DNA of 64,000 nucleotides from Escherichia phage vB-Eco-KMB43. The position numbers were made by a program, and so were the translations under genes. Positions within the stretch are counted from its first letter, which is position 1. Each line of letters starts with the position of its first letter. The stretch is taken from the sequence record OR525698.1. One strand, written 5' to 3'. Below, in pieces: positions 12,367 to 18,344 of the stretch. The notes beneath the pieces are model-generated. The model searched no databases. It was not told the DNA's origin and was given only the letters and a program-made list of their open reading frames with translations.

Positions 12367-14418
12367 TTACATTTTAAATTTATCTGGCATTGCGTCTACA
12401 GATACCAGATCAGCGATAAGCTGACGTAGAGTTGCCTTATCTGCTTTCTTACGTTCGGTTTTAGCTTCGCTAATGAAGCTGGAGAAAGACAGGTCAGAAG
12501 CAGGTTTAATAACACCTTCACGGATGAATGCATCACCGTCTGCGATCATCTCGCCAGATTCTTGTAATGCTGCCAGTTCATTTTTGTTCATAATATGTGC
12601 CTCAATGTAATAAGTTTCTTGTGAATCCGTCGATGCCGTAGCACGAGTTACCGTATCAAAGGATAACACAACACCGCGAGGAAGTAAAATCTCGCATTCT
12701 TTGTAAGCAAATGCTTTGTTACCTACTGGCAACACAGGGATGTTTTCCGCGCCAGCAATGGAGAAAGCAACATTAGCGCCACCTTCACCGCGAGAGCCAG
12801 CCATAGAATCAACACCAGCAACGGCACTAGCCACGTTTGCATTCCAGCCGCCAAAAATGTTAGGTGCAAGGGAAGTGCTCACATAGTTTTTAAAGTAAAA
12901 CGCTTTTTGCTTACGTGCAGTTTCCCACATTTGAGTCCGGAAGTCCATACCACGATACAGAATAGTACCCGGATCAAGTTTAACGCCATAGTTGGAGAAG
13001 GCATTATCCAGTGCATCGCACATCTTGACCAATTCTTCTGGATCTGCGATGCCTTCAAACTCTTCCAGCTTACGATCAGTTAGGAAGTTGTTCATATTGA
13101 TGTATGCTGCATCGGCATATTCGCTCAATACAAAACCTTCCGCGCCCGGCAGATCAAGATCAATATCTGCCATCATTTCACCCATGTTGCTAGCAATTGC
13201 TTCAAACATACCGGAAGCAACATTACGTAGGGCATCGGTTTTAATCTGGGTGATATGACTACGCAGCATTTCAGCTTTTACATCTGCTGGCATAGACTGG
13301 TCTACTCGATCCATTGCCAGGGCGGTGATCTTGTTTTCGAATACTTCCTCGCTCATGATTTCTTTTAAGCGTTTGATTGATGCTGCGATAACTTCCGCAG
13401 ACAACGGATCATATTGATCCTGAACTTTTACCAGTTCGCTTACTGCGTATTTTGCATCTGCTTCGCTTTCAAAAATAGTACGCATGAAACCATAGCGAGT
13501 GATAATATCACTTGTCCAGTCATTCAGAGAACGGGCGGTTGAACGTTCTAATGCTTGACGATCAATCAGAGTATTAAACTGTTTCTTAGGTTCGGCTTCG
13601 GTGATATCTTCTTCCGGTTTAAGATTAATTTTTTCTGGATGATTCACATAGTCGCTGTTATAGGTCGCTTGAGTTTTCAGCATTTCTTCTTTAGTCAAAC
13701 GAGATTTAGCCGCTACGCGTTGTTCTGCTTCCGCGTTTCGTTCTTCTTCTGACACAAGACTAGCCGCATACGCCTCATCTTTAGTCAGAGATTCACCAGT
13801 AGCCTTAGATACCCAGCGATCACCTAAATCACTTTCTACTTTAGTGAACAAGGATTCATCAAGTTTAATCCCTTTAATCTTATCAATCGCCATCCCGCGA
13901 CGCTTGACAACAACTAAAGCGATCTTTTTGCTGGTCATTACTTCCTGCTGGAATACTTCAAACTTCGGTGTACGACGCACCAAACGCTCTATAACGCGCT
14001 TAACCAGTTCGGTCTTACCTTTCATGCGGGATACGTTAAAACGGAACATAACAGCGTCTAATTGCGCTTTACGGGCTGTTTCCATAACCACATCAAAAGC
14101 ACTTGCCATAACTGCAATCGGGTTATCTCCTAGACCATTTTTAAGCTGTACAATACGACCGCTTTTGTTCATTTCGCACAGTACAACATGTGCGGTCTTG
14201 TCACCCATACGAATGATTTTAGGTGTTTTGTTGGTGAAGTTACAAAGACGGACAATCACATCTTTATCGCGTGTCTGTACTGCAAAAAGCTGTTTAGGAT
14301 TCTGCTTAGGCTTTAAGCACTGTACCGGAGCAATACTGCCAAAGTTTTCTTCCTCTTCCGTCAACAGCCATTTCTCGAAAGATTCAATCATTAGATCGTC
14401 GATTTCTAAGTTAAACAT
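12367..14418 (-). CDS. alt: Alt ADP-ribosyltransferase (head-packaged)
   Basis: 683 aa, T4 Alt size; motifs ILYRG, FKNYVSTS, YKECEILLPRG. Confidence 0.85.
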   Translation of the reverse strand: MFNLEIDDLMIESFEKWLLTEEEENFGSIAPVQCLKPKQNPKQLFAVQTRDKDVIVRLCNFTNKTPKIIRMGDKTAHVVLCEMNKSGRIVQLKNGLGDNPIAVMASAFDVVMETARKAQLDAVMFRFNVSRMKGKTELVKRVIERLVRRTPKFEVFQQEVMTSKKIALVVVKRRGMAIDKIKGIKLDESLFTKVESDLGDRWVSKATGESLTKDEAYAASLVSEEERNAEAEQRVAAKSRLTKEEMLKTQATYNSDYVNHPEKINLKPEEDITEAEPKKQFNTLIDRQALERSTARSLNDWTSDIITRYGFMRTIFESEADAKYAVSELVKVQDQYDPLSAEVIAASIKRLKEIMSEEVFENKITALAMDRVDQSMPADVKAEMLRSHITQIKTDALRNVASGMFEAIASNMGEMMADIDLDLPGAEGFVLSEYADAAYINMNNFLTDRKLEEFEGIADPEELVKMCDALDNAFSNYGVKLDPGTILYRGMDFRTQMWETARKQKAFYFKNYVSTSLAPNIFGGWNANVASAVAGVDSMAGSRGEGGANVAFSIAGAENIPVLPVGNKAFAYKECEILLPRGVVLSFDTVTRATASTDSQETYYIEAHIMNKNELAALQESGEMIADGDAFIREGVIKPASDLSFSSFISEAKTERKKADKATLRQLIADLVSVDAMPDKFKM

Positions 14419-14460: not shown

Positions 14461-14480
14461 AAAAGGGGCTTAACGCCCCC
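14461..14480 (-). terminator. terminator (GGGGC-TTAAC-GCCCC hairpin family)
   Basis: AAAA upstream on plus strand gives T-run on minus strand. Confidence 0.55.
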
Positions 14481-14698: not shown

Positions 14699-14734
14699 TT
14701 GATACTCCTTAGTAGTTCGTTTCGGTATGGGTGT

Positions 14735-14763
14735 ATTATGATATACACCCTCTGTTATGTCAA
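14735..14763 (-). promoter_or_regulatory. early promoter, PeSL-like (TTGACA ... CATAAT)
   Basis: -35 TTGACA and -10 with palindromic element, upstream of 14486-14698 ORF. Confidence 0.5.
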
Positions 14764-14769
14764 CAACTT

Positions 14770-14949
14770 TTAGAACATTTTTGAAATCAATTCTGCTTTG
14801 ATTTCGCAGAGAACATCTAAAGATTTCTCGTCACCTGCTTTTGCTGCTTCTGCTTGCATTTTTGAAATGGCTTCAATGTCGGTGCAATTATAAGCCGCTT
14901 GAACTTTAGCGATTGCGATGATTGCCGATTCGATGGTTAAGTGTTTCAT
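14770..14949 (-). CDS. hypothetical small protein (59 aa)
   Basis: ATG at 14949 behind a PeSL promoter and GGAGAATCAA leader; below ORF-track cutoff. Confidence 0.4.
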   Translation of the reverse strand: MKHLTIESAIIAIAKVQAAYNCTDIEAISKMQAEAAKAGDEKSLDVLCEIKAELISKMF

Positions 14950-14981
14950 GTTTGATTCCCCTTTCGTTTCGGTATGTGTGT

Positions 14982-15011
14982 ATTATAGGGGATCACCGAT
15001 CCCCCTGTCAA
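14982..15011 (-). promoter_or_regulatory. PeSL early promoter (TTGACA-GGGGGATCGGTGATCCCC-TATAAT)
   Basis: Consensus -35/-10 with GC stem-loop in spacer. Confidence 0.6.
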
Positions 15012-15022
15012 CAACTTTTTAG

Positions 15023-15538
15023 TTATTTTTTTAATTGCTCATCTTGCAATAGGGCAATCACATGCTGGCGATGTTCTTCCGATTGAGGCACACCGAAAAA
15101 GTTTGTTTTGTAGAAATACTCTAATCGGTCTTCTCGTGTGCTCTCTTCCATCATGATCGCGGGTAGTCCGAGATTTCGGAAACGTCGCTTTTCTGCTGGC
15201 GTAAAATCACTGTAATACAACATAGAATCATCATTACCAGCAATGCTAAACTCATCCTTCATAAAGGAGAATATTGCGTTTAAACGCTGTTTACCGTCCA
15301 CGATTTCGATCTCATAGCGAGAGCCATCATCAATCTTAGCCATTGCGATAGCACCGACCGGAAAATCATTAATCAGGTTTTCGATAAACATACGTTTGTT
15401 TTCGGTGTCCCATACCAAAGGACGCTGATAATCTGGGTTCATGTTGATATAGCCATCTTCTAACCATGCTTCGTAAACAGAGATGACAAAGTTTTTAGTA
15501 TTGGTATAGTAACGGCGTTTAGGCGTTAAACGGTTCAT
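15023..15538 (-). CDS. DUF262 / ParB-like nuclease domain protein
   Basis: Motifs DYQRPLVWD and VDGKQRL (DGQQR-type); start at ATG 15538 with AGGAG RBS. Confidence 0.65.
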   Translation of the reverse strand: MNRLTPKRRYYTNTKNFVISVYEAWLEDGYINMNPDYQRPLVWDTENKRMFIENLINDFPVGAIAMAKIDDGSRYEIEIVDGKQRLNAIFSFMKDEFSIAGNDDSMLYYSDFTPAEKRRFRNLGLPAIMMEESTREDRLEYFYKTNFFGVPQSEEHRQHVIALLQDEQLKK

Positions 15539-15539
15539 G

Positions 15540-15872
15540 TTATAGTCTCCTGAATGGATCATCACGTAAATCAATATCTTTTAAGAACTCATCCCATGAA
15601 TGGCGGATATTGTTCTTAATTCTCCAGATAAGCGCAGGGATTGAACGCTCTCCCATCTGGAAGTATGGATCATATGATCCGTATGCCCAATATGCTACTA
15701 CAATTCCACAATCAGCGCAATAGTATTCTATTTCACTTGCTGGCGACCAAAGTCCATCAATATGATCGGTGATCTTGCTTTCGATGTTATGGCTATGACA
15801 ATCAGGGCAACGGATGCAATGACCTTGTTTATCGTAATTTGACGTTAGCGAATACTTAAACAATCTCATCAT
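15540..15872 (-). CDS. zinc-ribbon protein (CxxC...CxxC)
   Basis: CIRCPDCHSH ... YYCADCG cysteine pairs; coupled to flanking genes. Confidence 0.5.
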   Translation of the reverse strand: MMRLFKYSLTSNYDKQGHCIRCPDCHSHNIESKITDHIDGLWSPASEIEYYCADCGIVVAYWAYGSYDPYFQMGERSIPALIWRIKNNIRHSWDEFLKDIDLRDDPFRRL

Positions 15873-16585
15873 AGATCCTTATTTGCTTCAAATACTGCCT
15901 TTGCGAATCCTCGCGGGGTAAGTGACCTGATAGTCTTTGTTTTCGTTCCTTTCCCGCCTAGCTTAGAATGCTGTTTACTGTACCCTTTATTAATCTGCAA
16001 AGGTTTCTTTTCTGGCATTATAAAGCCTTGTCCGGTCCATAAGCAAGTCTTTTTCGGGTACATATCACGGGCGGCGATATACTCAGGAAAAGTAGGATGT
16101 TTATCATCTTCCGGCAAATAACCGCCATATTCCCACGGATGGAACATATAATCAGGCTTACGCCACATGCTAGAGATAACGCTTACAGGATTCTCTATCA
16201 TGTAGGGAACTCCTAGCCATTCACCCAAATAAGCGGTTATTTTAGCTGCCCGTACATCATGAACTTGAATCAATGGTCCTTGCTCTCGTTTCTTTCGTTC
16301 AAAGTGTGCAGCGCCACTAACAGCTAAATTGGTGCACGGTGGGAATGCAAAGATAATATCCGGTTTCCCCCATTCAAGGTCCATTGCTCTTTCCAGCCAG
16401 TTCAAATCAATCCAGGTGTTTACATAGGTAATGTTTGGATGTTCAAATCTGGTATTATACTTTTTGTATGTACCGTGGTCGGCGTCATCCGCATTAAAGC
16501 AGACTACCTTATGACCTGCTTTAGCCCATTCTAGCCCCATTATCCCCGATCCGTCAAAGTTACAGAATATTAATTTTTGTTTCAT
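15869..16585 (-). CDS. minimal C5-cytosine methyltransferase-like protein (238 aa, no obvious target recognition domain)
   Basis: Motif I-like FDGSGIMG, motif IV AFPPCTNLAVSG, motif VI ENP, motif X-like LTPRG. Confidence 0.55.
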   Translation of the reverse strand: MKQKLIFCNFDGSGIMGLEWAKAGHKVVCFNADDADHGTYKKYNTRFEHPNITYVNTWIDLNWLERAMDLEWGKPDIIFAFPPCTNLAVSGAAHFERKKREQGPLIQVHDVRAAKITAYLGEWLGVPYMIENPVSVISSMWRKPDYMFHPWEYGGYLPEDDKHPTFPEYIAARDMYPKKTCLWTGQGFIMPEKKPLQINKGYSKQHSKLGGKGTKTKTIRSLTPRGFAKAVFEANKDL

Positions 16586-16827
16586 ATACGCCCCTTTAAT
16601 CCAACACAGATTTTAGAAGGTTCTTTGCCGTGCCACATTAAGTAAAGTCCATTAATGCGGCCTTGTTTTGTATATGATTCTTTTCTGATCTTCTTATAGT
16701 GTCGTGCTTCCTCAGCCGATTGTTTAGAATACCAATCATAAAGGAAGAGGCACAAAGGCCAACCATTAGCGGCCTTAATGCAGTTATTAAGAAATTCCTT
16801 ATTGCGTTTAATTAATTTTCTTTTCAC
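16582..16827 (-). CDS. hypothetical protein (81 aa)
   Basis: ORF overlapping neighbours by 4 nt within operon. Confidence 0.5.
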   Translation of the reverse strand: MKRKLIKRNKEFLNNCIKAANGWPLCLFLYDWYSKQSAEEARHYKKIRKESYTKQGRINGLYLMWHGKEPSKICVGLKGRI

Positions 16828-17075
16828 GCTGCCCCCATTGGTTTGATAGTAACAGAATCTAAAAGACCTTTGTTAGCCAGTTCGCGGCAAGTTTTCAGAT
16901 CCGCAACTTCCCAGCCAGCCGCAATCAGGTTATCGATGAGGCTGTTAGCAACTTCTTCGCTCATGAAAGAGCACTGTTTGCCGATGGTGTAGCGTACACG
17001 CTGTAATTTCAGTTTACGGAAGCCTTTAACGTTCAGGTCTTTAGCGATTTTCTTTGCGGTTTCGATGTTAGCCAT
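16824..17075 (-). CDS. hypothetical protein (83 aa), first gene of the PeSL-driven operon
   Basis: AGGAGA RBS, PeSL promoter at 17115-17144. Confidence 0.5.
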   Translation of the reverse strand: MANIETAKKIAKDLNVKGFRKLKLQRVRYTIGKQCSFMSEEVANSLIDNLIAAGWEVADLKTCRELANKGLLDSVTIKPMGAA

Positions 17076-17114
17076 TGTTTGATTCTCCTAAGTGGTATCT
17101 AGTCTTGATGGTTG

Positions 17115-17144
17115 TATTGTAGGGGAGTTATCCTCCCCTGTCAA
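17115..17144 (-). promoter_or_regulatory. PeSL early promoter (stem GGGGAGG/CCTCCCC)
   Basis: TTGACA with GC palindrome; drives operon 17075 to 15023. Confidence 0.5.
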
Positions 17145-17158
17145 CACTTTTTATAAAA

Positions 17159-17326
17159 TTATTTGTTAATTTCCGGTGCGTTGCTAGGATAGTAACCTTC
17201 TTTAACTCCGAGGTATTTCGCAACCATCCCTACAATCTTCTGTGCTACTACAATGTCAAATTTCAGATAATCTTCGCCGTGGGTTTCAATGATATATGCT
17301 TCACATGCTGCTTTAGTCTCGAACAT
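17159..17326 (-). CDS. hypothetical small protein (55 aa), paralog of 20780-20947
   Basis: MFETKAACEAY...NAPEINK; near-identical copy elsewhere; PeSL upstream. Confidence 0.45.
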   Translation of the reverse strand: MFETKAACEAYIIETHGEDYLKFDIVVAQKIVGMVAKYLGVKEGYYPSNAPEINK

Positions 17327-17359
17327 TTTGATTCTCCTATTTCGTTTCGGTATGTGTGT

Positions 17360-17388
17360 ATTATAGGGGATCTCCCGATCCCCGTCAA
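17360..17388 (-). promoter_or_regulatory. PeSL early promoter (TTGACG-GGGATCGGGAGATCCCC-TATAAT)
   Basis: Consensus hexamers with stem-loop spacer. Confidence 0.6.
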
Positions 17389-17404
17389 CAACTTTTTTTT
17401 AAAA

Positions 17405-17686
17405 TTATTCGTGATTAGTTTCGATGTTGTGCATTTTGCACCAGTTCAGCCAATCACCCAGATCCTGATAGTTAATGCTTTTATCTGCTGCCATCGTTTT
17501 TGTCTTGATACCCATATGTGCGTTATGAGTAAGCATTTTTACAGTGAACTCAATTTTATCACCTTTAGCTTTAACATCAACCAGTTTGGTCCACTGGCTA
17601 CCAGCGCCGCGAATGTTCATACCAACGATGTTTCCGATGTATGCTTCTTTGTTTTTCAGGATTTCGGTTGCTTTGATGAATTTCAT
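17405..17686 (-). CDS. hypothetical protein (93 aa)
   Basis: ORF after PeSL promoter with GGAGAATCAA leader. Confidence 0.5.
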   Translation of the reverse strand: MKFIKATEILKNKEAYIGNIVGMNIRGAGSQWTKLVDVKAKGDKIEFTVKMLTHNAHMGIKTKTMAADKSINYQDLGDWLNWCKMHNIETNHE

Positions 17687-17719
17687 TTTTGATTCTCCAG
17701 TTCGTTTCGGTATGTGTGT

Positions 17720-17748
17720 ATTATGCTATTTTCTTACTTTGGTGTCAA
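17720..17748 (-). promoter_or_regulatory. early promoter (TTGACA-17-CATAAT), PeSL-related without clear stem
   Basis: Hexamers at correct spacing plus shared CACACATACCGAAACGAA leader. Confidence 0.5.
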
Positions 17749-17757
17749 CAACTTTTT

Positions 17758-18027
17758 TTAGATATTTTCAGAAATAAATTTTAAAACTTGACGTAAATGT
17801 TTCTCATCTTTGATAGTCGCCGGAAGTTCTTCTTTTACTTCCTGTGCAAGATAGATATTTCCGTTCCAAGTGAAAGATCCGTCTTCGTTTACGCGATAGC
17901 TGAACATCCACTCGCAATCATTTTCGATTTCATATACACACAGAAGAGTGTAATCTTCAAAGCTATTGATTTCAAGGTCGAAGCCGTGACGTTTTGCAAA
18001 GTTGGTAGTGGTTTTAGTCAGTGCCAT
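17758..18027 (-). CDS. hypothetical protein (89 aa)
   Basis: ORF after PeSL promoter. Confidence 0.5.
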   Translation of the reverse strand: MALTKTTTNFAKRHGFDLEINSFEDYTLLCVYEIENDCEWMFSYRVNEDGSFTWNGNIYLAQEVKEELPATIKDEKHLRQVLKFISENI

Positions 18028-18068
18028 TGTTTGATTCTCCTAAGTGGTATCTCGTCTTGATGGGTGTA

Positions 18069-18096
18069 TTATGCTATAGGCGTGATCTGGTGTCAA
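18069..18096 (-). promoter_or_regulatory. early promoter (TTGACA ... CATAAT)
   Basis: Hexamers upstream of 17758-18027 ORF. Confidence 0.5.
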
Positions 18097-18344
18097 TGCT
18101 TTTTTTAATTTTATGCAATAAAAAGACGACACTAAGGTCGGCACATTTTAAAAATTCTTGCCATATATGCAAGCCTCATAATCTAGAGGATGACCGCCAA
18201 TCCTACCCGGCTTAATATTCCAACCGCATCGATATTTGCTGACCATGCTAACAGTTTCGGTTCTTAGAGCATTTTCTTTGCAAATCATACCCCATAAATT
18301 CTTTTCTATAAGGACAGTCCGCTTTGCAAGTTGGCGGTTCTACG

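What the first reader, a model, noticed from the sequence alone, without database searches (positions are those of the whole stretch)
15023..17150. Five-gene early operon pairing a minimal C5-MTase-like enzyme with a zinc-ribbon protein and a DUF262 (ParB-like nuclease) protein
One promoter (17115-17144) drives five overlapping ORFs. The 238 aa protein carries motifs IV (FPPCT..AVSG), VI (ENP) and a motif X-like LTPRG but has no room for a normal target recognition domain. It is translationally coupled to a CxxC zinc-ribbon protein and to a 171 aa DUF262 protein (DYQRPLVWD, VDGKQRL). DUF262 is best known as the N-terminal module of GmrSD-type modification-dependent restriction enzymes. A phage-borne MTase-like plus DUF262 pair could be a DNA modification, anti-defence or inter-phage exclusion module.
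Basis: partly seen in the sequence, partly recalled or inferred. Interest (0 to 1): 0.7.

Follow-up and report, generated by a model that had tools for sequence, protein, structure and literature searches.

The report
Known phage Dcm-like methylase, unlinked DUF262
This stretch of an RB49-like coliphage holds five real early genes, including a short cytosine DNA methylase from a family already tested in the lab and a stand-alone DUF262 (ParB-like) protein, but comparative genomics shows the two are neighbours by accident, not a conserved module.

Summary
A sigma-70 promoter (17144-17116, minus strand) precedes five tightly packed genes in a Krischvirus (RB49-like) genome.

- **Its family is already known.** It is 56% identical over its full length (E 2e-92) to the short "Dcm-like" methylase of KarlJaspers-type phages. 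That enzyme (phage K42) puts 5mC on DNA and triggers retron Ec86. The family occurs in 1,479 phage genomes.
- **The 171-aa protein is a genuine stand-alone DUF262 domain.** Pfam gives E 4e-20 and the fold is ParB/BrxU-like. It has no HNH nuclease.
- **The "pair/module" reading fails.** All 78 non-Krischvirus methylase loci lack DUF262 and the zinc-ribbon gene. All eight distinct non-Krischvirus DUF262 contexts lack this methylase. A metagenomic relative carries ORF5-ORF4-zinc ribbon-DUF262 with the methylase gene precisely absent.
- **Bulk modification is not seen.** The near-identical phage TB34 has no detectable modified bases.

The function of the DUF262 protein remains unknown. Interest is low to moderate.

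The parts
17116..17144 (-). Sigma-70-type early promoter (TTGACA, 17 nt, TACAAT) with a GGGGAG..CTCCCC palindrome in the spacer
   Evidence: A promoter is annotated at the same place in GEC-3S.
16824..17075 (-). ORF5, 83 aa, unknown function (phrog_14908)
   Evidence: 72% identical homologue in L088.
16582..16827 (-). ORF4, 81 aa, GTG start overlapping the ORF5 stop (GTGA), unknown function (phrog_7065)
   Evidence: 70% identical homologue in L088.
15869..16585 (-). Short Dcm-like C5-cytosine DNA methyltransferase, 238 aa. Motif I FDGSG (10-14), catalytic PPC (C84), ENP (E131), KK (178-179).
15540..15872 (-). Zinc-ribbon protein, 110 aa (C22/C25 ... C52/C55), unknown function (phrog_2993). The start overlaps the methylase stop (ATGA).
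   Evidence: Found in 292 phage genomes, including Nonagvirus-type 60-kb phages (JenP1) and Felixounavirus, which are not among the DUF262 hits by organism and host counts.
15023..15538 (-). Stand-alone DUF262 (ParB/Srx-fold) protein, 171 aa. Motifs YQRPLVW, DGKQR and FxxxNxxGVPQSEEH. No HNH/DUF1524.
14982..15011 (-). Next tandem early promoter (TTGACA, 18 nt, TATAAT), immediately after the DUF262 stop with no terminator between
14464..14480 (-). First terminator-like hairpin downstream, marking the end of the multi-promoter early region
   Evidence: A terminator is annotated at the equivalent place in GEC-3S.

Best explanation
The region is a segment of the early accessory-gene block of an RB49-like (Krischvirus) T4-type coliphage. 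Host RNA polymerase transcribes it from tandem sigma-70 promoters. It is a mosaic of independently inherited small genes.

**Gene 3** encodes a member of the widespread short (about 230 aa) 'Dcm-like' phage C5-cytosine DNA methyltransferase family. The protein has a complete catalytic domain (SAM-binding FxGxG, catalytic Pro-Cys, ENV-type Glu) and a short, highly conserved insert in place of a large target-recognition domain. I infer that, made early in infection, it transfers a methyl group from S-adenosylmethionine to C5 of cytosines in a rare short motif. CCWGG is proposed for the characterised homologue. This would act as an orphan anti-restriction methylase. It carries a known cost: the same activity triggers retron Ec86.

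**Gene 5** encodes a bare ParB/Srx-type DUF262 nucleotide-binding domain with no nuclease or DNA-binding extension. It is a separate accessory gene shared with other T4-like genera, and its role is unknown.

The methylase, the zinc-ribbon protein and the DUF262 protein are adjacent in Krischvirus through gene-cassette shuffling. They are not parts of one machine.

**Shown here:** fold, motifs, family membership and the lack of conserved linkage. **Shown by others:** 5mC formation by a 56%-identical homologue. **Inferred:** activity and target motif of this copy, and its anti-restriction role.
For: **Genome identity.** The region is 98% identical to RB49, GEC-3S and TB34.

**Methylase.**
- phrog_757 'DNA methyltransferase', E 8e-91.
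- 7,314 homologous clusters, uniformly about 230 aa.
- Invariant F10, G12, S13, G14, P82-P83-C84-T85 and E131-N132-P133.
- The L076 gene is 96.8% identical in DNA to the KarlJaspers 'Dcm-like C5 cytosine methyltransferase'.
- The L076 protein is 56% identical to the window protein end to end (E 2e-92), with C82, E128, K175 and K176 aligned to C84, E131, K178 and K179.
- The K42 Dcm (a 711-bp gene) raised 5mC on msDNA by LC-MS. The quadruple mutant (C82A, E128A, K175A, K176A) did not raise 5mC. It was expressed alone from a plasmid.

**Independence from DUF262.**
- 78 of 78 non-Krischvirus loci lack zinc-ribbon and DUF262 genes, by tblastn and by HMM.
- 1,479 genomes carry the methylase, 324 carry DUF262 and 292 carry the zinc ribbon. 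Host and genus make-up differs, apart from the same number (56) of high-identity records, consistent with Krischvirus, in each search.
- No hit to the methylase HMM even at E 10 in any non-Krischvirus DUF262 locus.
- L088 has an ORF4/zinc-ribbon ATGA junction with the methylase gene absent.
- Phage kaaroe and L088 carry an extra small gene between the zinc-ribbon and DUF262 genes.

**DUF262.**

**Rare-site activity.** TB34 shows no detectable modified nucleosides by HPLC-MS (PMC13390438). HpaII cuts RB49 DNA (PMC4041780).
Against: - No experiment exists on the Krischvirus protein itself.
- The Pfam PF00145 match is below the gathering score (15.7 against 22 bits). A family profile finds no C5-MTase among PDB sequences. 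The link to canonical enzymes therefore rests on motifs I-VI, the fold and the K42 experiments.
- CCWGG specificity of K42 Dcm was assumed by analogy with E. coli Dcm and supported only by msDNA mutants. The dcm+ host did not trigger the retron, so the phage enzyme may differ in site or substrate.
- Translational coupling in Krischvirus is compatible with co-function. One other short DUF262 gene (L087) is overlapped by a gene resembling an amino-methyltransferase (SPPY motif; PF01555 E 1e-3, below threshold).
- HPLC-MS on TB34 might also mean that the enzyme does not act on phage DNA at all.
Confidence: 0.75

Rival explanations
1. The minimal methylase, the zinc-ribbon protein and the DUF262 protein form one complex. 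The zinc ribbon and/or the ParB-like domain would supply the DNA recognition or loading that the methylase lacks, by analogy with ParB-domain/methylase fusions.
For: The genes are tightly coupled (ATGA overlaps, 1-nt gap). The methylase has only a short insert where a target-recognition domain normally sits. In L087 a short DUF262 gene is overlapped by a gene resembling an SPPY amino-methyltransferase. ParB-domain/DNA-methylase fusions are known in phages and plasmids (my own knowledge, not tested here).
Against: The methylase family occurs without either partner in 78 of 78 sampled loci, and only about 56 of the 1,479 genomes that carry it are Krischvirus. K42 Dcm works when expressed alone. 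L088 keeps the zinc-ribbon and DUF262 genes without the methylase. DUF262 in RB16, KP15, POP12 and ST64B has no methylase or zinc-ribbon neighbour. Some Krischviruses insert another gene between the zinc-ribbon and DUF262 genes.
Confidence: 0.08
2. The stand-alone DUF262 protein is a counter-defence decoy. As a nuclease-less copy of the NTPase/dimerisation domain of host GmrSD/BrxU, SspE, DndB-type or Menshen NsnA proteins, it would poison or titrate those systems.
For: It consists only of the ParB-DUF262 core. The best PADLOC matches are NsnA (E 1e-20) and PD-T4-2_A. It resembles BrxU and SspE structurally. It is expressed from early promoters. It is conserved in several T4-like genera, and its closest relatives (top 150 of 17,174 family representatives) are all short (92-344 aa) with the domain at or near the C-terminus, leaving no room for a nuclease domain.
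Against: There is no experimental support. Krischvirus SAP carries a 99%-identical copy yet is restricted by BrxU, which argues at least against an anti-BrxU role. The NTP-binding motifs (QR, DGKQR, FxxxN) are invariant, which suggests an enzyme rather than a passive decoy.
Confidence: 0.15
3. The DUF262 protein is itself an NTP-dependent DNA-acting factor, either a ParB-like clamp or a ParB/Srx-type nuclease. It would act on host or competing-phage DNA, for example in host shut-off or superinfection exclusion.
Against: It has no recognisable DNA-binding domain (no HTH, no ParBDB). No phenotype data exist.
Confidence: 0.2
4. The 238-aa protein is an unrelated Rossmann-fold enzyme, or a methylase of a non-DNA substrate (tRNA or a nucleotide), and the C5-MTase motifs are coincidental.
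Confidence: 0.04

Closest known systems
Phage K42 / KarlJaspers (Bas06) 'Dcm-like C5 cytosine methyltransferase' (Drexlerviridae), the trigger of retron Ec86 (bioRxiv 10.1101/2023.08.16.553469)
   Same: Same family and length (236 against 238 aa). 56% identity end to end, E 2e-92. The catalytic Cys, Glu and Lys-Lys align. Both have the same short insert in place of a target-recognition domain, and both resemble DNMT3 in predicted fold.
   Different: It sits in a T4-like myovirus early region rather than a T1-like siphovirus. This copy is untested. The target motif is not rigorously established even for K42.
Canonical bacterial and eukaryotic C5-cytosine DNA methyltransferases (PF00145: M.HhaI, E. 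coli Dcm, DNMT3A/B catalytic domain)
   Different: About 90-230 residues shorter. There is no large target-recognition domain and no recognisable QxRxR (motif VIII) or GNAV (motif X). Pfam is below the gathering score, and a family profile finds no PDB C5-MTase by sequence.
GmrSD / BrxU / SspE type IV, modification-sensing restriction enzymes
   Same: The N-terminal DUF262 (ParB/Srx) domain with QR, DGxQR and FxxxN motifs.
   Different: No DUF1524/HNH nuclease and no helical linker or DNA-binding middle domain. The protein ends at residue 171. It is phage-encoded and expressed early, so it is not a restriction enzyme.
Stand-alone short DUF262 proteins of other T4-like phages (RB16p168, KP15_143, POP12_100) and Salmonella phage ST64B Sb33
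   Same: 35-39% identity over the whole length, the same size, and the same invariant C-terminal GVPQSEEH motif.
   Different: They sit in different gene neighbourhoods (near nudE in RB16, KP15 and POP12; in the early-left region of ST64B), with no methylase or zinc-ribbon gene adjacent. None has a known function.
CmoX, the phage DNA cytosine C5-carboxymethyltransferase (PDB 8yf3; PMC12783734)
   Different: CmoX has 333 residues and uses carboxy-SAM for hypermodification. There is no evidence for this here, and TB34 DNA shows no unusual bases.

Membership tests
Short phage Dcm-like C5-cytosine methyltransferase family (phrog_757; K42/KarlJaspers Dcm) | Full-length homology to the characterised member | tested here: met
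   56% identity over 238/236 aa, E 2e-92. phrog_757 E 8e-91.
Short phage Dcm-like C5-cytosine methyltransferase family (phrog_757; K42/KarlJaspers Dcm) | Residues mutated in the K42 study (C82, E128, K175, K176) are conserved | tested here: met
   They align to C84, E131, K178 and K179. C84, E131 and K178 are invariant in 41 sequences.
Short phage Dcm-like C5-cytosine methyltransferase family (phrog_757; K42/KarlJaspers Dcm) | SAM-dependent formation of 5mC in DNA | not testable with these tools
   Shown only for K42 Dcm, by LC-MS. TB34 HPLC-MS shows no bulk modification.
Canonical C5-cytosine DNA methyltransferase (Pfam PF00145) | Pfam gathering score | tested here: not met
   15.7 bits against a cut-off of 22. 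Only residues 10-100 match.
Canonical C5-cytosine DNA methyltransferase (Pfam PF00145) | Motif I FxGxG, motif IV Pro-Cys, motif VI ENV | tested here: met
   FDGSG 10-14, FPPCT 81-85 and ENP 131-133, all invariant.
Canonical C5-cytosine DNA methyltransferase (Pfam PF00145) | Motif VIII QxRxR, a large target-recognition domain, and motif X GNAV | tested here: not met
   None is recognisable in the alignment. A conserved stretch of roughly 75 residues (about 141-215) and IRSLTPRGFAKAV (motif IX-like) take their place.
Canonical C5-cytosine DNA methyltransferase (Pfam PF00145) | C5-MTase three-dimensional fold | tested here: met
GmrSD-type modification-dependent restriction enzyme | N-terminal DUF262 domain with QR, DGQQR and FxxxN motifs | tested here: met
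GmrSD-type modification-dependent restriction enzyme | DUF1524/HNH nuclease domain, fused or encoded by an adjacent gene | tested here: not met
   The protein ends at residue 171. None of the five proteins gives an HNH or DUF1524 hit. The closest 150 relatives are also short.
ParB/Srx superfamily | ParB-N/sulfiredoxin fold | tested here: met
   0 of 78 methylase loci outside Krischvirus have DUF262. None of the eight distinct non-Krischvirus DUF262 contexts (nine loci) has this methylase. L088 lacks the methylase gene.

The most novel reading that the evidence does not exclude
The stand-alone DUF262 proteins form a large, uncharacterised family (17,174 representatives at E <= 0.001). The 150 closest are all short (92-344 aa) with the domain at or near the C-terminus, so none has room for a nuclease domain. 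The close subfamily aligned here (8 sequences) shares an invariant C-terminal GVPQSEEH motif. The family could be a new class of phage NTP-dependent DNA-binding or counter-defence factors. In Krischvirus the protein might cooperate with the neighbouring Dcm-like methylase, for example by reading or shielding phage DNA that carries 5mC, or by targeting the methylase to incoming DNA.
Probability: 0.08. Interest if true: 0.6.

Novelty: new member of a known kind. Interest (0 to 1): 0.22.

Why it matters
Little is at stake for the methylase. It belongs to a family that is already annotated and experimentally characterised: orphan anti-restriction methylases that also trigger retron Ec86.

Three modest open points remain:
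1. How a 238-aa C5-methylase with almost no target-recognition domain selects its site. The true motif has not been rigorously mapped.
2. What the widespread nuclease-less DUF262 proteins of T4-like phages do.
3. Whether any gene in this early region bears on the unexplained report that Krischvirus SAP is cytosine-modified while its 99.96%-identical twin TB34 is not. I found no coding difference in this operon, only a duplicated promoter downstream.

Tried and rejected
- **Sequence searches of the PDB.** The methylase alone gave no match. The family profile gave only a chance hit. DUF262 gave only chance sliding-clamp hits.
- **NCBIfam.** Nothing for the methylase or DUF262.
- **A conserved zinc-ribbon/DUF262 pair.** The roughly 110-aa genes just upstream of DUF262 in RB16 and KP15 have no cysteines and no similarity to the zinc-ribbon protein, so I rejected this idea.
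- **POP12_099 as a hidden methylase.** This 250-aa gene overlaps the DUF262 start in POP12, but it shows no similarity.
- **Neighbours in ST64B, L085 and L094.** None gave a hit to the methylase-family HMM. Pfam scans of the ST64B, POP12 and RB16/KP15 neighbours also found no methylase.
- **Context of the zinc-ribbon homologue in JenP1.** Only small hypothetical genes, nothing informative.
- **One literature query returned only irrelevant RNA-m5C papers** (Krischvirus / methyltransferase / 5-methylcytosine).
- **CCWGG depletion in the window** (30 observed against 66.7 expected). I considered it as support for a Dcm/EcoRII arms race. It is not specific: several other GC-rich 5-mers are equally or more depleted, and CCAAG/CTTGG, the expected deamination product, is itself depleted.
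Full report
**What the window is.** The 2.4-kb region is 98% identical to RB49, Phi1, JSE, GEC-3S, TB34 and about 50 other Krischvirus genomes, the 'pseudo-T-even' T4 relatives. In those records the 238-aa gene is variously annotated 'DNA methyltransferase', 'Dcm' or 'C-5 cytosine DNA methylase'. The 171-aa gene is once annotated 'DUF262 domain protein'.

**Checking the observation.** The five minus-strand ORFs are at the stated coordinates.
- The promoter TTGACA-17-TACAAT lies at 17144-17116. GEC-3S annotates a promoter at the same place.
- The ORF5/ORF4, ORF4/methylase and methylase/zinc-ribbon junctions are 4-nt overlaps (GTGA, ATGA, ATGA). The zinc-ribbon stop and the DUF262 start are separated by one base, with AGGAGA just upstream.
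- Each protein matches a PHROG family and has diverged homologues, so all five are real genes.
- The unit is not self-contained. Near-identical promoter units lie upstream at 17388, 17748 and 18096 and downstream at 15011 and 14763. No terminator occurs between about 18.15 kb and 14.47 kb. The five genes are part of a longer multi-promoter early region that ends just before the alt gene.

**The 238-aa protein.**
- Pfam PF00145 matches only residues 10-100 and falls below the gathering score (E 0.01). phrog_757 'DNA methyltransferase' matches end to end (E 8e-91).
- The family is very large: 7,314 clusters at 90% identity, all about 225-260 aa. It is present in 1,479 of 50,697 phage genomes, including Drexlerviridae, Dhillonvirus, Kagunavirus, Vequintavirinae, 47-51-kb Klebsiella siphoviruses such as KP36, and Campylobacter phages.
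- In a 41-sequence alignment, FDGSG (motif I), PPCT (motif IV with the catalytic Cys84) and ENP (motif VI) are invariant. So is a long C-terminal stretch, WRKPD...YGGYLPEDD.HP.FPEYI..RD.Y.KKT.LW...KLGGK..KTK.IRSLTPRG.
- The AlphaFold model is confident (pLDDT 90, pTM 0.88).
- Foldseek against the PDB ranks DNMT3B first (E 1.5e-8), then DNMT1, MET1, DIM2 and DNMT2.

**The methylase family is already characterised.**
- A bioRxiv paper (10.1101/2023.08.16.553469) isolated escape mutants of the Drexlerviridae phage K42, which is 95.4% identical to BASEL phage KarlJaspers Bas06, on retron Ec86. All four escapers hit a 711-bp dcm gene.
- The plasmid-expressed Dcm alone raised 5mC on msDNA by LC-MS and activated the retron. 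A C82A/E128A/K175A/K176A mutant did not raise 5mC. The authors also noted the DNMT3A-like predicted fold.
- Locus L076, fetched here, carries a 711-nt gene that is 96.8% identical to the KarlJaspers gene annotated 'Dcm-like C5 cytosine methyltransferase'.
- Its product is 56% identical to the window protein over the whole length (E 2e-92). C82, E128, K175 and K176 align to C84, E131, K178 and K179.
- The window protein is thus a member of an experimentally validated family of short phage C5-methylases.
- One caveat: CCWGG specificity was assumed from E. coli Dcm and supported only by msDNA mutants. The dcm+ host alone did not trigger the retron. The real site or substrate preference of the phage enzyme is therefore not settled.

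**Is phage DNA modified?** HPLC-MS of TB34, which carries this operon at 98% identity, found no modified nucleosides (PMC13390438). HpaII cuts RB49 DNA (PMC4041780). This excludes bulk or low-specificity methylation. It remains compatible with methylation of a rare motif, which I estimate at roughly 0.5% of cytosines for CCWGG.

**The 171-aa protein.**
- Pfam GmrSD_N (DUF262) matches with E 4.2e-20. The three signature motifs described for DUF262/DGQHR domains (QR, DGQQR, FxxxN; PMC4619093) are present and invariant as YQRxxVW, DGKQR and FxxxNxxGVPQSEEH.
- There is no HNH/DUF1524 domain in this protein or in its neighbours.
- A profile search of 1.84 billion representatives found 17,174 relatives. 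The closest 150 are 92-344 aa long, mostly about 160-190 aa, or about 270-290 aa with an uncharacterised N-terminal extension. In all of them the DUF262 domain lies at or near the C-terminus, so there is no room for a nuclease domain.
- The DUF262 assignment is sound, but the protein is not a GmrSD enzyme.

**Testing the 'pair'.**
1. Of 80 viral-contig loci fetched around methylase homologues, the 78 outside Krischvirus have no zinc-ribbon or DUF262 homologue within 4 kb. This holds by tblastn and by an HMM of the short DUF262 family.
2. Short DUF262 genes occur in 324 phage genomes. These are the Krischviruses plus RB16-type, KP15-type and POP12-type T4-like phages, ST64B and others. The zinc-ribbon gene occurs in 292 genomes: the Krischviruses plus Nonagvirus-type 60-kb phages (JenP1) and Felixounavirus. 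By organism and host counts, the three sets appear to overlap only in Krischvirus, where each search gave the same number (56) of high-identity records.
3. In RB16, KP15 and POP12 the DUF262 gene sits near nudE, and in ST64B it sits in the early-left region. None has a methylase or zinc-ribbon neighbour. The methylase-family HMM finds nothing at E <= 10 in any of the nine non-Krischvirus DUF262 loci.
4. Metagenomic contig L088 is about 70% identical in DNA to Krischvirus. It encodes ORF5 (72%), ORF4 (70%), the zinc-ribbon protein (66%), a 46-aa gene and DUF262 (56%). The ORF4 stop overlaps the zinc-ribbon start by ATGA, so the methylase gene is precisely absent.
5. Phage kaaroe and L088 carry an extra small gene between the zinc-ribbon and DUF262 genes that the window lacks.

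The cluster is therefore a mosaic of cassettes exchanged at start/stop junctions, as is usual for T4-type early regions. The only counter-hint is L087. There a short DUF262 gene is overlapped by a 357-aa gene with an SPPY motif and a sub-threshold N6_N4_Mtase match.

**What the DUF262 protein does.** This is not resolved.
- A decoy against host DUF262-containing defences is attractive. The best PADLOC match is Menshen NsnA, E 1e-20. However, SAP carries the gene and is still restricted by BrxU.
- The invariant nucleotide-binding motifs favour an active NTP-binding protein.
- I rank 'NTP-dependent DNA-acting factor' and 'counter-defence decoy' as the two live options, with neither above about 0.2.

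**Verdict.** The proposed functional pairing is not supported, and the methylase belongs to a known, experimentally studied family. Novelty is that of a new, untested member of known kinds, and interest is low to moderate.

Noticed in passing
window 14700-18120, minus strand (promoters at 18096, 17748, 17388, 17144, 15011, 14763): Six tandem early promoters share a conserved unit of about 70 nt: an A-rich upstream tract, GTTGTTGACA, a -10 box, and then a conserved leader ATACACACATACCGAAACGAA...GGAGAATCAAA. Three of them (17388, 17144, 15011) have a G/C palindrome (GGGGATC...GATCCCC type) filling the spacer. These repeated units explain the recurring 'FRYVCIIGD' peptide in plus-strand ORFs.
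   Followed up: partly
L003 (phage SAP) 551-698 against L002 (TB34) 1551-1619; equivalent to window about 14950-15022: SAP, reported as cytosine-modified, differs from its 99.96% twin TB34, reported as unmodified, by a 79-bp tandem duplication of the promoter and leader unit immediately downstream of the DUF262 gene. In SAP it is annotated as a 38-aa ORF (SAP_052). At the protein level the five operon products match the window proteins to the same percentage in SAP and TB34; I did not align the two phages directly over the coding regions.
   Followed up: partly
whole window: CCWGG is under-represented: 30 observed against 66.7 expected from a maximal-order Markov model, the sixth most depleted of 512 5-mers. 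GGCCC is absent (0 against 8.5), and CCAAG/CTTGG (13 against 59) and CCCGG are also strongly depleted. This looks like restriction-site avoidance in an unmodified genome.
   Followed up: partly
L004 (kaaroe) 1137-1316; L088 841-981: A small gene (59 and 46 aa, MxTPQLHGK...YKWFESMKEFVAAV) lies between the zinc-ribbon and DUF262 genes in kaaroe and in the metagenomic relative. Three other Krischvirus matches with enlarged spans (FL04, ELT3, ELT4) may carry it too, but I did not check them. It is absent from the window.
   Followed up: partly
L087 2953-4507: A 357-aa gene with VWDMSSGYGG and FTSPPYFN motifs, resembling an amino-methyltransferase (PF01555 E 1e-3, below threshold), overlaps the start of a short DUF262 gene that is 46% identical to the window's. 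This is the only other methylase/DUF262 adjacency I found.
   Followed up: partly
window 16824-17075 (ORF5, 83 aa): Weak match (E 2.6e-5, residues 12-75) to the C-terminal region of the PADLOC model RT_UG35, a defence-associated reverse transcriptase. It may be chance or a shared small domain.
   Followed up: no
window 12367-14418, minus strand: The 683-aa ORF downstream of the region is the Alt-like RNA polymerase ADP-ribosyltransferase, as annotated in GEC-3S, TB34 and kaaroe. This places the operon in the early accessory block upstream of alt.
   Followed up: no
proteins P0127, P0144-P0275 (relatives of the window DUF262): Many of the closest DUF262 relatives are about 270-290 aa long, with an N-terminal extension of about 110-150 residues that has no Pfam match. 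This is an uncharacterised two-domain variant.
   Followed up: partly
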